The notes beneath the pieces were generated by a model. It had not been told where the DNA came from. It worked only from the letters and a program-made list of their open reading frames with translations, and made no database searches. Position numbers and translations under genes: made by a program. A stretch of 64,000 bases of DNA from Escherichia coli (GTDB lineage: Bacteria > Pseudomonadota > Gammaproteobacteria > Enterobacterales > Enterobacteriaceae): NCBI RefSeq assembly GCF_003334405.1, contig NZ_QOWM01000003.1, one strand, 5' to 3'. Shown piece after piece: positions 52,077-55,700 of this stretch (position 1 is the stretch's first letter; every line of letters starts with the position of its first letter).

Positions 52077-52745
52077 ATGCGTACCACATCATTTGCGAAA
52101 GTTGCAGCTTTATGCGGCTTATTGGCTCTGTCTGGTTGTGCCTCTAAAATCACCCAGCCAGATAAATATTCTGGTTTTTTAAACAATTACTCTGATTTAA
52201 AAGAAACAACCTCGGCTACAGGTAAACCTGTTTTACGTTGGGTAGACCCGAGTTTTGATCAAAGCAAATATGACAGCATCGTCTGGAACCCAATCACTTA
52301 TTATCCGGTACCGAAACCGTCGACCCAGGTAGGGCAGAAAGTTCTGGATAAAATTTTGAACTATACCAACACCGAAATGAAAGAAGCGATAGCGCAGCGT
52401 AAACCACTGGTTACCACCGCTGGGCCGCGTAGTCTGATTTTCCGTGGGGCCATTACCGGTGTAGATACCAGCAAAGAAGGGCTGCAATTCTATGAAGTGG
52501 TTCCTGTTGCATTAGTGGTTGCGGGGACGCAAATGGCTACAGGCCACCGTACCATGGATACTCGCCTCTATTTTGAAGGTGAGCTGATTGATGCAGCGAC
52601 TAATAAACCGGTTATCAAAGTCGTTCGTCAGGGCGAAGGTAAAGACCTGAATAACGAAAGTACGCCAATGGCTTTCGAAAATATTAAACAAGTTATTGAT
52701 GACATGGCGACCGATGCCACCATGTTTGACGTTAACAAAAAGTAG
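52077..52745 (+). CDS. ydcL: lipoprotein (DUF3313)
   Basis: 222 aa; lipobox LALSGC in MRTTSFAKVAALCGLLALSGCASK. Confidence 0.85.
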   Translation: MRTTSFAKVAALCGLLALSGCASKITQPDKYSGFLNNYSDLKETTSATGKPVLRWVDPSFDQSKYDSIVWNPITYYPVPKPSTQVGQKVLDKILNYTNTEMKEAIAQRKPLVTTAGPRSLIFRGAITGVDTSKEGLQFYEVVPVALVVAGTQMATGHRTMDTRLYFEGELIDAATNKPVIKVVRQGEGKDLNNESTPMAFENIKQVIDDMATDATMFDVNKK

Positions 52746-52753
52746 TTCCAGAC

Positions 52754-52778
52754 GCGCCATCGTTAGATGGCGCTTTTT
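52754..52778 (+). terminator. terminator of ydcL, overlapping the tnpA stop; possible IS left-end hairpin
   Basis: GCGCCATC-gtta-GATGGCGC followed by TTTTT. Confidence 0.55.
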
Positions 52779-53269
52779 ATCCGGTGCGCCGTAAAACCCC
52801 ATCCTTCAGGGCGGGGATATAAGGCGCGGTTTTCCACCTGACCAGGTGTTTGCTGTTGTTCAATGTATTGGCGGATGACGGATATTGGCGCACCTCCGCA
52901 GCTACTGGCAAAATAGCCAGGACTCCACAAAACGCCTTTGTAGTAATACCTGAATGCAATATCTGGTCGATCTCGTCGCAGTCACCTACCCGATACGCCT
53001 TTGAGGCTGTTTACCAGACTGGATATCGCCAGTTTGGGAGGATAGTTAATTAACAAATGGACGTGATCTGGTTCGCCATCCATTTCAACCAGTTCAGCTT
53101 CAAAATCAGCACATACATTTGAAAAGTAAGTGCGTAGTTTTTCTGTCGCGTCATGGTCAAAAATCTGGCGTCGGTATCTGGTGACAAAGAGCAGGTGAAC
53201 ATGCATCAGGAAAACACAATGCCTTCCACGCCGGATATCGGTTTCTTTTTTCACAGACCAAAGTATCAT
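52763..53269 (-). pseudogene. insP: IS200/IS605-family Y1 transposase TnpA interrupted by a single in-frame TGA
   Basis: N-terminal 95 aa (HVHLLFVTRYRRQIF, HUH motif PDHVHLL) then TGA at 52982-52984, then same-frame continuation LRRDRPDIAFRYYYKGVLWSPGYFASSCGGAPISVIRQYIEQQ... to TAA 52763-52765. Confidence 0.75.
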
Positions 53270-53276
53270 TTGACCT

Positions 53277-54485
53277 GTGAAACGATTACAGGCATTTAAA
53301 TTCCAGTTAAGACCCGGTGGTCAACAGGAGTGTGAAATGAGGCGCTTCGCAGGCGCATGTCGTTTCGTTTTCAATCGTGCTCTGGCACGTCAGAATGAGA
53401 ATCATGAGGCCGGTAATAAATACATCCCTTACGGGAAAATGGCTTCCTGGCTGGTTGAGTGGAAAAATGCCACTGAAACGCAATGGCTTAAAGATTCTCC
53501 CTCACAGCCATTGCAACAGTCACTGAAAGACCTTGAGCGGGCTTACAAAAACTTCTTCCGGAAGCGGGCTGCTTTTCCCCGATTCAAAAAGCGGGGACAG
53601 AATGATGCATTCCGCTACCCGCAGGGCGTTAAGCTCGATCAGGAAAACAGCCGTATTTTTCTGCCGAAACTGGGCTGGATGCGCTACCGGAACAGCCGTC
53701 AGGTCACGGGTGTTGTGAAAAATGTCACTGTCAGCCAGTCCTGCGGTAAGTGGTACATCAGTATTCAGACAGAAAGTGAAGTATCAACTCCGGTTCACCC
53801 TTCAGCATCAATGGTCGGGCTGGATGCTGGCGTGGCTAAACTCGCCACGCTGTCAGATGGCACAGTCTTTGAGCCTGTAAACAGTTTTCAGAAAAACCAG
53901 AAGAAGCTGGCGAGACTTCAGCGACAGTTAAGCCGCAAGGTCAAATTCAGCAACAACTGGCAAAAGCAGAAACGCAAAATACAGCGACTGCATTCCTGTA
54001 TCGCAAATATCCGCAGGGACTACCTTCACAAAGTCACAACGGCCGTCAGCAAAAACCACGCAATGATAGTCATTGAGGATTTGAAGGTCAGCAACATGTC
54101 AAAGTCAGCAGCGGGTACGGTCAGCCAGCCGGGGCGCAATGTCCGGGCAAAATCAGGTTTAAACCGTTCGATACTGGATCAGGGCTGGTATGAAATGCGC
54201 CGCCAGCTTGCGTACAAGCAGCTCTGGCGTGGCGGTCAGGTGCTTGCTGTTCCGCCAGCGTATACAAGCCAGCGTTGCGCGTACTGTGGTCATACAGCGA
54301 AAGAGAACCGCCTGTCACAAAGTAAATTCAGATGCCAGGTATGTGGATATACAGCGAACGCCGATGTAAATGGCGCTCGCAACATTTTAGCGGCGGGGCA
54401 CGCCGTTCTTGCCTGTGGAGAGATGGTGCAGTCAGGCCGCCCGTTGAAGCAGGAACCCACCGAAATGATTCAGGCGACAGCCTGA
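53277..54485 (+). CDS. insQ: TnpB (OrfB) RuvC-like RNA-guided endonuclease of the IS200/IS605 family
   Basis: 402 aa from GTG 53277 (first ATG 53337 gives 382 aa); N-terminal motif [10 protein letters not shown]; RuvC-I VGLDAGV, RuvC-II IVIEDL, zinc finger CAYCGH...CQVCG, Ruv[13 protein letters not shown] all present. Confidence 0.85.
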
Positions 54486-54525
54486 ACGTAGCAGGGATCC
54501 ACGTCCTTCAGGGCGTGGAGGATGT
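54330..54525 (+). ncRNA. predicted omegaRNA (right-end RNA) of TnpB; extent approximate
   Basis: By analogy with characterised TnpB systems the guide RNA scaffold derives from the tnpB 3' end and the right-end hairpin (candidate stem TCCACG/CGTGGA 54500-54521); not directly demonstrable from sequence. Confidence 0.3.
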
Positions 54526-55700
54526 CAATATCGGTTTCTGTCAGCGATTAAATTCAACACCACGTAACAAACGCCTCCGGCAATTAATCCCCAAAACGCA
54601 GAACCAATCCCGACCAGCGTCAATCCACTTGCCGTTACCAGAAATGCCACCACCGCCGCGTCTCGCTCACGCTCATTATGCAGCGCCTGATACAAACTGC
54701 CGCCGATGGTACTTAACAGCGCCAGACCTGCCAGCATCTGGATCCAACTTACGGGCAGGGCAGCCATCATCCCGGTAATGGCACTACCAAACAGACCTGC
54801 GAGCAAATAGAAAATGCCTGCAACGGCAGCGGCCAGCCAACGTTGATCTTTATCCGGATGCGCTTCCGGGCTTTGGCAAATAGCCGCGGTGATTGCCGCA
54901 ATACCGACGGAATAAACGCCGAAAGGGGAAAAAACCAGTGCCAGCAATCCAGTAAATACAATTAATGGCGAAACAGGAGCCGAATATCCAGCTGCTTTCA
55001 TTGCTGCGATACCCGGTGCGTTTTGCGATGCCATCGTCACCAGAAAAAGGGGGAGTGCAACGCTCAGGCTGTGAGCAAACGAAAAATCAGGGGTAATATA
55101 AGTGGGGAGAACGGGTTTAAAGACAACATCAGTTGTGACAACGTCACCTTGCGCGATGACGATCACGATCCCAATAATCATCGCGGCAATTACCGCATAG
55201 CGCGGCGCAACGGCCTTGGTTGCCAGCCATACCAGCAACATACTTCCACACAACGTAAATTGACCGTCCAGACTGGCAAACGCCTGTAAACCAAAGCGTA
55301 ATAAAATCCCGGCAAGCATTGCCGCCGCAAGCGAGTGCGGAATAATGCGCATCAGACGAGCAAAGAGTCCCGTTATGCCGCAGAGGACTATTAGCGCGTT
55401 GGTGACAATAAAAACGCCGATGGCTTCGTTAAGTGTTAGTCCCTGCAATCCGGTGACCAACAAAGCCGCGCCAGGCGTTGACCATGCGGTGAGAACAGGT
55501 ACGCGATACCATAATGTCAGAGTCAGCGTACTGACGCCCATTGCCAGCCCCAGCGCCGTCATCCAGCCAGAGATTTGTGCAGTGGTGGCTCCGGCGACAA
55601 TCGCTGCTTGCCAGATTATTGCCGCTGAACTGGCGTAGCCAATTAATACCGCCAGAAACCCCGCCAGTAGCGTGGGTGGAGGAATAGAAAACAGACGCAT
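54525..55700 (-). CDS. ydcO: BenE-family (benzoate transporter-like) inner-membrane protein
   Basis: 391-aa form from ATG 55700 (MRLFSIPPPTLLAGFLAVLIGY...); polytopic membrane protein; ORF-track 478-aa version is an upstream extension. Confidence 0.85.
   Translation of the reverse strand: MRLFSIPPPTLLAGFLAVLIGYASSAAIIWQAAIVAGATTAQISGWMTALGLAMGVSTLTLTLWYRVPVLTAWSTPGAALLVTGLQGLTLNEAIGVFIVTNALIVLCGITGLFARLMRIIPHSLAAAMLAGILLRFGLQAFASLDGQFTLCGSMLLVWLATKAVAPRYAVIAAMIIGIVIVIAQGDVVTTDVVFKPVLPTYITPDFSFAHSLSVALPLFLVTMASQNAPGIAAMKAAGYSAPVSPLIVFTGLLALVFSPFGVYSVGIAAITAAICQSPEAHPDKDQRWLAAAVAGIFYLLAGLFGSAITGMMAALPVSWIQMLAGLALLSTIGGSLYQALHNERERDAAVVAFLVTASGLTLVGIGSAFWGLIAGGVCYVVLNLIADRNRY

What the first reader, a model, noticed from the sequence alone, without database searches (positions are those of the whole stretch)
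52763..53269. IS609-like tnpA is inactivated by a single in-frame TGA and is otherwise full length
The minus-strand Y1-transposase frame runs 95 codons (HUH motif PDHVHLL), hits TGA at 52982-52984, then continues in the same frame through the catalytic-tyrosine helix (VIRQYIEQQ) to a TAA inside the ydcL terminator hairpin. By my alignment to a remembered TnpA the stop sits where an Arg is expected, consistent with a CGA to TGA transition. The element is therefore probably immobile through one point mutation.
Basis: partly seen in the sequence, partly recalled or inferred. Interest (0 to 1): 0.5.

Follow-up and report, generated by a model that had tools for sequence, protein, structure and literature searches.

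The report
Known dead transposase gene in IS609
This is the already-annotated yncK pseudogene, the broken transposase gene of the single IS609 insertion sequence of E. coli K-12. The premature stop is real, but it replaces a leucine, is only one of several defects, and is found in only part of the species.

Summary
The sequence observation holds. The minus-strand frame 53269..52763 is 169 codons with one in-frame TGA at 52982-52984 (codon 96). The HUH motif lies before the stop and the catalytic tyrosine (Y135) after it. The frame ends at a TAA in the loop of the ydcL terminator hairpin.

- The ancestral codon is TTA (Leu), invariant in 11 full-length homologues, not CGA (Arg). The change is a T>G transversion.
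- The gene is not otherwise intact. The family's normal stop after residue 143 is CAG here, so the frame runs 25 sense codons out of the element into ydcL flank. The copy also carries V27L, V107F and a stem-weakening G>A in the left-end hairpin.
- The TGA is not fixed. 1,999 of 5,426 complete E. coli genomes have an empty site and 3,266 carry the insertion. Among 16 sampled occupied loci, 7 have the TGA, 5 a 5-bp deletion plus Y76*, 3 a 1-bp deletion and 1 none of these.

The MG1655 reference already annotates IS609 with pseudogene yncK (b4578) at these coordinates. tnpB (insQ) next door is intact and looks weakly constrained. Verdict: ordinary, known pseudogene decay in a non-autonomous IS609.

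The parts
52781..54528 (+). IS609 element. The + strand is taken as the top strand. It begins CCGGTG and ends GGATGTCAA.
   Evidence: The boundaries come from the blast limits of copies at other loci and from the junction and empty-site comparison. They are identical to mobile_genetic_element IS609 1503161..1504908 in NC_000913.3.
52776..52780 (+). TTTAT, the target pentanucleotide 5' of the left end and the presumed TAM of TnpB.
   Evidence: TTTAT precedes the left end at all four loci compared. The empty site shows no target duplication. The TAM role is inferred from the known TnpB mechanism.
52786..52827 (+). Left-end subterminal hairpin, weakened in this copy by A at 52801.
   Evidence: ssDNA fold: -10.5 kcal/mol, z -1.0 here, against -18 kcal/mol, z -3.9 in the O157:H7 copy. 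52801 A is present in all the ydcL-locus copies aligned and absent from all copies at other loci.
52838..53269 (-). tnpA pseudogene, equal to yncK/b4578 (143 codons plus the former stop position).
   Evidence: The translation matches NF033573 IS200/IS605 transposase over residues 13-138. NC_000913.3 annotates it as a pseudogene. PGAP notes 'internal stop; missing C-terminus'.
52982..52984 (-). Premature stop TGA at codon 96 (ancestral TTA, Leu).
53057..53065 (-). HUH motif H69-V70-H71.
   Evidence: Aligned with DHIHIL of IS608 TnpA.
52865..52867 (-). Catalytic tyrosine codon Y135, downstream of the premature stop.
   Evidence: RQYIEQQ aligns with KQYIENQQ of IS608 TnpA.
52838..52840 (-). CAG at the position of the canonical stop codon (TAG in the intact O157:H7 copy).
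   Evidence: Homologues from other genera all end ..QQQTP[G/S/D].
52763..52837 (-). Read-through tail of 24 sense codons and the TAA stop after the CAG. It crosses the left end and stops in the ydcL terminator loop.
   Evidence: The element boundary at 52781 lies inside this tail.
53277..54485 (+). tnpB / insQ, intact at 402 aa, divergent from tnpA with 7 bp between the start codons.
   Evidence: NF040570 guided_TnpB, 380 bits, profile positions 1-388 of 389. E 1.9e-54 to ISDra2 TnpB structures. In the printed alignment, LDAG, IEDL and NADVNGA sit opposite the DlG, vEDL and DrDeNAA motifs, and there are two CxxC pairs.
54498..54519 (+). Right-end subterminal hairpin TCCACGTCC-TTCA-GGGCGTGGA.
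   Evidence: ssDNA fold of 54480-54535 gives -9.9 kcal/mol, z -2.2. Nearly invariant among copies.
54380..54544 (+). Presumed omega-RNA: scaffold to 54528, then the 16-nt guide TATCGGTTTCTGTCAG at 54529-54544.
   Evidence: This is inferred from the TnpB mechanism. Supporting data: RNA fold z -2.3, sub-threshold Rfam HgcC and RAGATH-18 hits, and a match of TTTAT plus guide to the empty site (14 of 16 in HM670).
52754..52773 (+). ydcL terminator hairpin. It is flanking DNA, not part of the IS.
   Evidence: It is present unchanged at the empty site.

Best explanation
The region is the tnpA gene of the single IS609 copy (IS200/IS605 family) lying between ydcL and ydcO in a K-12-like E. coli. It is the pseudogene that the MG1655 reference calls yncK (b4578).

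In this lineage a T>G transversion turned Leu96 (TTA) into TGA. Translation would then stop after the HUH motif and before the helix that carries the catalytic Tyr135. No active Y1 transposase can be made.

The stop is one of several defects:
- every sampled copy at this locus has also lost the canonical stop codon (TAG>CAG);
- every sampled copy carries a G>A change in the left-end hairpin;
- K-12 has since added V27L and V107F.

Other E. coli lineages disabled the same gene independently (a 5-bp deletion with Y76*, a 1-bp deletion, R33*). This is ordinary neutral decay of a transposase gene at an old, vertically inherited insertion.

The element is left non-autonomous. Its tnpB (insQ) ORF is intact and it has a plausible guide RNA. 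K-12 has no second IS609 copy that could supply TnpA.

Shown: the lesions, their distribution and the relaxed constraint. Inferred: loss of activity, the order of the lesions and the effect of the hairpin change.
For: - Frame and stop.
- Reference annotation of IS609, yncK pseudogene and insQ at exactly these coordinates. PGAP note 'internal stop'.
- Ancestral TTA and the canonical TAG stop in the intact 143-aa O157:H7 copy WP_000604943.1.
- Leu96 invariant, and the C-terminus ..QQQTP[G/S/D] in all homologues aligned from other genera (138-146 aa).
- IS608 and archaeal structures have Ile or Leu at position 96; HUH and Tyr align.
- 16 ydcL-locus copies: 7 with TGA96, 5 with del5 plus Y76*, 3 with del1, 1 with none of these. 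All have CAG and 52801A.
- tnpA substitutions: 18 nonsynonymous to 3 synonymous, including 4 nonsense, with no third-position excess.
- Whole collection: TGA 61-mer exact in 2,596 records, TTA 61-mer in 2,322, del5 haplotype in 672, del1 haplotype in 616.
- Occupied junction in 3,266 genomes and empty site in 1,999 of 5,426.
- The K-12 MG1655 record listed has one place matching the tnpA 61-mer.
Against: - No activity was measured, so loss of function is inferred from the truncation.
- UGA followed by C is a weak terminator context in E. coli (established knowledge, not tested here). A trace of full-length L96W protein cannot be excluded.
- The effect of the 25-residue C-terminal extension and of the hairpin mismatch on transposition is unknown.
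- The CAG form occurs at four or more loci. Either it was still mobile or it spread by gene conversion.
- The locus-specific allele frequencies rest on 16 fetched loci plus 61-mer counts that are not locus-specific.
Confidence: 0.9

Rival explanations
1. One reading: the TGA is the only thing wrong, so one reversion would restore an active, mobile IS609.
For: - The frame is open on both sides of the stop, with HUH and Tyr intact.
- The conserved domain (NF033573, residues 13-138) is fully covered.
- The right-end hairpin and the TCAA end are intact.
- The C-terminal tail lies outside the conserved domain, and IS608 TnpA (155 aa) extends about 20 residues beyond the aligned domain.
Against: - The canonical stop is lost, adding 25 residues encoded by left-end and flank DNA.
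- V27L hits a nearly invariant position.
- The left-end hairpin loses a G-C pair and about 7 kcal/mol relative to the intact copy.
- Strain 361 (L007) lacks the TGA yet carries R14C and D55Y; R14 and D55 are invariant columns in the homologue alignment. This suggests the gene was already unconstrained.
Confidence: 0.15
2. The gene, or the element, was already disabled before the TGA arose. The disabling change would be the shared stop-codon loss, the left-end hairpin change, or both. The TGA would then be a later neutral hit.
For: - All 16 ydcL-locus copies share CAG and 52801A, whereas the nonsense and frameshift lesions differ by lineage.
- At least three independent disabling events are what relaxed constraint from the start would give.
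- tnpA has 18 nonsynonymous to 3 synonymous substitutions.
Against: - The CAG form is present at the DUF3251/nrdR, lsrG-tam and tetR/ytfB loci too. It may therefore have been transposition-competent.
- A C-terminal extension outside the catalytic domain need not inactivate.
- The hairpin effect is only a predicted energy.
Confidence: 0.35
3. The TGA is a leaky or recoded stop (tryptophan read-through or selenocysteine), so a low level of full-length TnpA is still made by design.
For: - The fourth base is C, and UGA-C is the weakest termination context in E. coli (established knowledge).
- The downstream frame is open.
Against: - The TGA is absent from all full-length homologues aligned and from 9 of the 16 sampled copies at the same locus.
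- Other lineages carry frameshifts in the same gene.
- There is no stable structure downstream of the UGA: z +0.42.
- A second stop, R33*, has been added in one TGA lineage.
Confidence: 0.03

Closest known systems
yncK (b4578) pseudogene within 'insertion sequence:IS609' of E. coli K-12 MG1655 (NC_000913.3)
   Same: The coordinates match after offset: IS609 1503161..1504908 equals window 52781..54528, and yncK 1503218..1503649 (-) equals 52838..53269. The window differs from MG1655 at 2 of 2,524 bases here, neither of them in tnpA.
   Different: Nothing substantive.
Intact IS609 of E. coli O157:H7 (TnpA WP_000604943.1, 143 aa, at the tetR/ytfB locus)
   Same: 97.7% nucleotide identity over the whole element. 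Same divergent tnpA/tnpB layout, same TTTAT target and same GTCAA right end.
   Different: The O157:H7 copy has TTA at codon 96, a TAG stop at codon 144, V27, K51, V107, A131 and a fully paired left-end hairpin.
IS608 of Helicobacter pylori (TnpA structures 2A6M, 2VJV and others)
   Same: HUH/Y1 fold, with E 7e-19 and the HUH and QYIE-QQ motifs aligned. Insertion 3' of a short target without duplication. Right end finishing in TCAA. Subterminal hairpins. The last three rest on established knowledge of IS608, compared.
   Different: The identity to IS608 TnpA is visibly low in the alignment. The target is TTTAT rather than TTAC. tnpA and tnpB are divergent here, as in IS605, whereas IS608 has them in the same direction (from knowledge of the family).
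ISDra2 TnpB / omega-RNA RNA-guided nuclease (8BF8, 8EXA, 8H1J); transposon-retention model of Meers et al. (bioRxiv 10.1101/2023.03.14.532601)
   Same: InsQ matches over residues 3-376 with E 1.9e-54, and the RuvC-type motifs and zinc-finger cysteines are present. The sequence after the right end, together with TTTAT, reproduces the empty site, as that model requires.
   Different: No omega-RNA has been shown for this copy. With tnpA dead there is no excision for TnpB to repair, so the retention function has nothing to act on in K-12.

Membership tests
IS200/IS605 family, IS605 group (IS609) | Encodes a Y1 HUH transposase TnpA. | tested here: met
   NF033573, 142 bits, residues 13-138. PF01797 on all homologues. 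HUH and Tyr aligned to IS608. The gene is a pseudogene here.
IS200/IS605 family, IS605 group (IS609) | Carries a tnpB (OrfB) gene beside tnpA. | tested here: met
   A 402-aa ORF at 53277..54485 matches NF040570 with 380 bits.
IS200/IS605 family, IS605 group (IS609) | No terminal inverted repeats; subterminal hairpins at both ends. | tested here: met
   Related hairpins CCCC(A/G)TCCTTCAGGGCGGGG at the left end and CCACGTCCTTCAGGGCGTGG at the right end, on the same strand. The left-end stem is weakened in this copy.
IS200/IS605 family, IS605 group (IS609) | Inserts 3' of a fixed short target with no target-site duplication. | tested here: met
   TTTAT precedes the left end at four loci. The empty site reads TTTTTAT|TATCGG and the occupied site TTTTTAT[IS]TATCGG.
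IS200/IS605 family, IS605 group (IS609) | Near-identity to the ISfinder IS609 reference sequence. | not testable with these tools
   ISfinder is not available here. The indirect support is that NC_000913.3 labels the element IS609 and PGAP names the 98%-identical O157:H7 TnpA 'IS609 family transposase'.
Nonsense-mutation pseudogene | Premature stop where intact orthologues have a sense codon. | tested here: met
   TGA against TTA/Leu in the full-length copies and in 11 homologues.
Nonsense-mutation pseudogene | Relaxed selection, with independent lesions in related lineages. | tested here: met
   18 nonsynonymous to 3 synonymous substitutions, 4 nonsense mutations and 2 indels among 16 copies.
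Programmed UGA recoding (read-through or selenocysteine) | The UGA is conserved among homologues. | tested here: not met
   Absent from all full-length homologues and from 9 of the 16 same-locus copies.
Programmed UGA recoding (read-through or selenocysteine) | A stimulatory hairpin just downstream of the UGA. | tested here: not met
   Fold of the 71 nt from the UGA: -13.6 kcal/mol, z +0.42.
TnpB/omega-RNA RNA-guided nuclease | RuvC catalytic triad and zinc finger intact. | tested here: met
   LDAG, IEDL, NADVNGA and CAYC..CQVC lie in the aligned positions.
TnpB/omega-RNA RNA-guided nuclease | An omega-RNA is transcribed from the tnpB 3' end and right end, with the guide taken from the flank. 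| tested here: inconclusive
   Only sub-threshold Rfam hits (HgcC 22 bits, E 0.025), a fold z of -2.3 and a low density of variable sites. There are no expression data.

The most novel reading that the evidence does not exclude
The tnpB (insQ)/omega-RNA module at the ydcL-ydcO insertion may be kept by selection in E. coli long after tnpA died at least three separate times. The selection could be for a self-preserving homing nuclease against the empty allele met through recombination, or for a host-adopted function.

Hints:
- 14 of 16 tnpB ORFs are intact, against 0 of 16 canonical tnpA ORFs.
- Nonsynonymous to synonymous counts are 28/19 for tnpB against 18/3 for tnpA (Fisher p 0.049).
- Nonsense mutations among nonsynonymous changes are 0 of 28 against 4 of 18 (p 0.019).
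- Disabling events per base are about 8 times fewer in tnpB (binomial p 0.006).

The samples are small, and gene conversion between copies confounds the counts.
Probability: 0.25. Interest if true: 0.4.

Novelty: already known. Interest (0 to 1): 0.12.

Why it matters
It matters little as a discovery, because the pseudogene and the IS609 element are in the reference annotation of E. coli K-12.

Two practical corrections come out of it. The stop replaces Leu (TTA), not Arg. And repairing it alone is not known to be enough to remobilise the element.

The side result is a modest lead. An old, fixed IS609 copy lost its transposase several times while its RNA-guided nuclease gene mostly stayed open. 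This could be a natural case for studying why tnpB genes outlive their transposases, in the very strain used for most TnpB assays.

Tried and rejected
- Rfam scan of 52400-54900 at a permissive threshold gave only sub-threshold hits (HgcC, RAGATH-18, sot0042), so no curated RNA family applies.
- Literature searches for IS609+tnpA, insQ/TnpB/K-12, b4578/insP, yncK and IS609+TnpB found no paper about this stop codon. They found only an IS census that counts one IS609 in K-12 (PMC3032704) and a study that purified an IS609 TnpB (PMC12781874).
- The selenocysteine or read-through idea was rejected: there is no downstream structure and the TGA is not conserved.
- The sigma-70 promoter scan was at chance level (2 found, 1.9 expected), so nothing can be said about expression of either gene.
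- I considered that the CAG at codon 144 might be the ancestral state, because most E. coli copies have it. I rejected this for the family as a whole, because every homologue aligned from another genus stops there.
- I could not get locus-specific allele counts for all 5,426 genomes. The 61-mer counts are not tied to the ydcL locus, and the TGA also occurs at the DUF3251/nrdR locus (L018).

Full report
**1. What is in the sequence.**

The window here is a K-12-like tehB-ydcL-[IS609]-ydcO-sutR region. It differs from MG1655 at 2 of 2,524 bases, neither of them in tnpA.

On the minus strand, an ATG at 53269 opens a frame of 95 codons that ends at TGA 52982-52984. The same frame then continues to TAA 52763-52765, so the stretch is 169 codons with one internal stop.

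The N-terminal part holds PDHVHLL (H69, H71). The part after the stop holds VIRQYIEQQ (Y135). Both align with the HUH motif and the QYIENQQ segment of IS608 TnpA, where I place the catalytic tyrosine from memory. The frame matches the IS200/IS605 transposase model NF033573 over residues 13-138.

The final TAA sits in the GTTA loop of a terminator-like hairpin, GCGCCATC-GTTA-GATGGCGC followed by TTTTTAT, just after ydcL.

**2. It is already annotated.**

NC_000913.3 carries a mobile_genetic_element 'insertion sequence:IS609' at 1503161..1504908, which equals window 52781..54528. It also carries a pseudogene yncK (b4578) at 1503218..1503649 on the minus strand, which equals window 52838..53269. 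The third feature is insQ (b1432), 'putative RNA-guided DNA endonuclease'.

**3. The ancestral codon is Leu, not Arg.**

An intact IS609 copy in O157:H7 ATCC 43888 encodes a 143-aa TnpA (WP_000604943.1). Aligned base for base, its codon 96 is TTA where the window has TGA.

Leu96 is invariant in 11 full-length homologues. These include proteins from Salmonella, Photorhabdus, Morganella, Proteus, Klebsiella, Yersinia and Hamiltonella. The solved structures have Leu (Sulfolobus) or Ile (IS608) at that position.

The mutation is a T>G transversion on the coding strand.

**4. The gene is not 'otherwise full length'.**

- *Lost stop codon.* All homologues aligned from other genera end ..QQQTP[G/S/D] and are 138-146 aa long. 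The O157:H7 copy has TAG there and the window has CAG (52838-52840). The frame therefore runs on for 25 sense codons in all. It crosses the left end of the element at 52781 and stops only by chance in ydcL flank. E. coli database proteins of 168, 204 and 213 aa are the same read-through at different insertion sites.
- *Missense changes.* K-12 carries V27L at a nearly invariant position, and V107F. A TGA-bearing relative (L022) still has V27 and V107, so these changes probably came after the stop.
- *Left-end hairpin.* All copies at the ydcL locus have A instead of G at 52801, inside the left-end hairpin stem. The predicted ssDNA hairpin drops from -18 kcal/mol (z -3.9) in the O157:H7 copy to -10.5 kcal/mol (z -1.0) here. 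Part of that drop comes from a second, polymorphic change at 52822.

Whether any of these abolishes activity is not known. Together they mean that 'immobile through one point mutation' is not established.

**5. The TGA is not fixed.**

- *Occupancy.* A 61-mer across the ydcL/left-end junction is present in 3,266 of 5,426 complete genomes. A 61-mer across the empty site is present in 1,999, among them UTI89 and HM670.
- *Sampled loci.* I fetched 16 occupied ydcL-locus copies, 15 of them taken at even steps down the similarity ranking plus the window itself.
 - Seven have TGA96: window, L001, L006, L008, L009, L022 and L024. L024 has a second stop, R33*.
 - Five have a 5-bp deletion at tnpA nt 112-116 together with Y76*.
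 - Three have a 1-bp deletion at nt 42.
 - One (L007) has neither stop nor frameshift, but carries R14C and D55Y.
 - All 16 have the CAG stop loss.
- *Estimated share.* Of the 22 evenly spaced ydcL-locus rows, about 13 (59%) carry or very probably carry the TGA.
- *Collection-wide counts of exact 61-mers.* TGA allele 2,596 records; TTA allele 2,322; 5-bp-deletion haplotype 672; 1-bp-deletion haplotype 616.
- *Exchange between copies.* The TGA also occurs in a copy at the DUF3251/nrdR locus (L018). Y76* occurs there too (L015). Lesions have therefore moved between copies by gene conversion.

**6. Signature of decay.**

Among the 16 copies, tnpA shows 18 nonsynonymous and 3 synonymous differences. 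Four of the nonsynonymous ones are nonsense, and there is no excess at third codon positions. That is what a pseudogene looks like.

**7. The rest of the element.**

- *Insertion site.* Comparison with an empty site and with copies at four other loci shows insertion 3' of TTTAT with no target duplication. The right end finishes in GTCAA.
- *Effect on neighbours.* The insertion lies in the T-tract of the ydcL terminator and inside the ydcO stop codon (TA|A). YdcO therefore gains one Tyr and ends at a TGA supplied by the IS.
- *tnpB.* tnpB (insQ) at 53277..54485 starts 7 bp from the tnpA start on the other strand. It matches guided_TnpB with 380 bits and ISDra2 TnpB with E 1.9e-54. In the printed alignment, the RuvC-type motifs and both CxxC pairs are in place.
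- *Presumed guide.* The 16 nt after the right end (TATCGGTTTCTGTCAG), preceded by TTTAT, reproduce the empty site (14 of 16 in HM670). That is the arrangement expected for a TnpB guide under the retention model of Meers et al. (bioRxiv 10.1101/2023.03.14.532601). No omega-RNA is demonstrated. Rfam gives only sub-threshold HgcC and RAGATH-18 hits, and the fold z-score is -2.3.

**8. Is tnpB constrained?**

Fourteen of the 16 ydcL-locus tnpB ORFs are intact.
- L023 has lost the GTG start.
- L022 has a 1-bp deletion in a T-run, in an assembly that also contains an N, so this may be an error.

Nonsynonymous to synonymous counts are 28/19 with no nonsense mutation, a ratio of about 0.42. For tnpA they are 18/3. 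The Fisher tests give p 0.049 for N/S and p 0.019 for nonsense mutations. Disabling events per base are fewer in tnpB (binomial p 0.006).

This suggests weak constraint on tnpB. The sample is small, however. Copies at other loci do show truncated or frameshifted tnpB (L017, L018, L019), and gene conversion blurs the counts. I treat it as a lead, not a result.

**9. Mechanism.**

Shown: the lesions and their distribution.

Inferred:
- The 95-aa product lacks the tyrosine helix. From established knowledge of IS608 TnpA, the active site of the dimer needs the HUH of one subunit and the Tyr of the other. The fragment therefore cannot cleave or rejoin DNA.
- K-12 has one IS609 copy (one search lists one place in MG1655; PMC3032704 counts one). 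No TnpA is available in trans, so the element should be immobile.

A leaky UGA-C stop is conceivable. It is not supported: there is no downstream structure (z +0.42), the stop is not conserved, and other lineages carry frameshifts.

**10. Verdict.**

The feature is already known and ordinary. Interest is low.

Noticed in passing
window 54525-54529 (ydcO stop) and L003 1578-1583: IS609 inserted inside the ydcO stop codon (TA|A). In IS-bearing strains YdcO gains a C-terminal Tyr and ends at a TGA that belongs to the IS right end (GTCAA). In empty-site strains it ends ..NR-TAA.
   Followed up: partly
window 52754-52780: The IS target TTTAT is the end of the T-tract of the ydcL intrinsic terminator, so the insertion sits immediately after the terminator hairpin.
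   Followed up: partly
L015/L018 (DUF3251-nrdR), L016 (lsrG-tam), L002/L017/L019 (tetR-ytfB), L020 (yhgE-hslO): E. coli has at least four other chromosomal IS609 insertion sites that recur between strains. Their tnpA genes carry assorted lesions: start-codon loss, Y76*, TGA96, a 1-bp deletion and a large truncation. Their tnpB genes are sometimes shortened or frameshifted.
   Followed up: partly
window 52983 and 53042 compared with L018 and L015: The same nonsense mutations (TGA96, Y76*) occur in copies at two different loci. The tnpB variable sites are mosaic between loci. Both point to gene conversion between IS609 copies.
   Followed up: partly
window 52835-52848: The stop-loss change (TAG>CAG) creates a perfect palindrome CACCTG-AC-CAGGTG followed by a T-rich run, which the scan flagged as terminator-like on the + strand. 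The intact O157:H7 copy has CACCTAACCAGGTG.
   Followed up: no
window 54422-54538 (+): Sub-threshold Rfam hits to HgcC (22 bits, E 0.025) and RAGATH-18 (25 bits) lie over the tnpB 3' end and right end, where an omega-RNA would be expected.
   Followed up: partly
window 53277-54485 across 16 ydcL-locus copies: tnpB stays open in 14 of 16 copies, with a nonsynonymous/synonymous ratio of about 0.42, while tnpA is disabled in every copy. One copy lost the GTG start (L023) and one has a 1-bp deletion that may be an assembly error (L022).
   Followed up: partly
window 54449-54457 and 54533-54541: In the RNA fold of the presumed omega-RNA, the guide segment (GGUUUCUG) pairs with CAGGAACC inside the tnpB 3' end. 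This may be chance.
   Followed up: no
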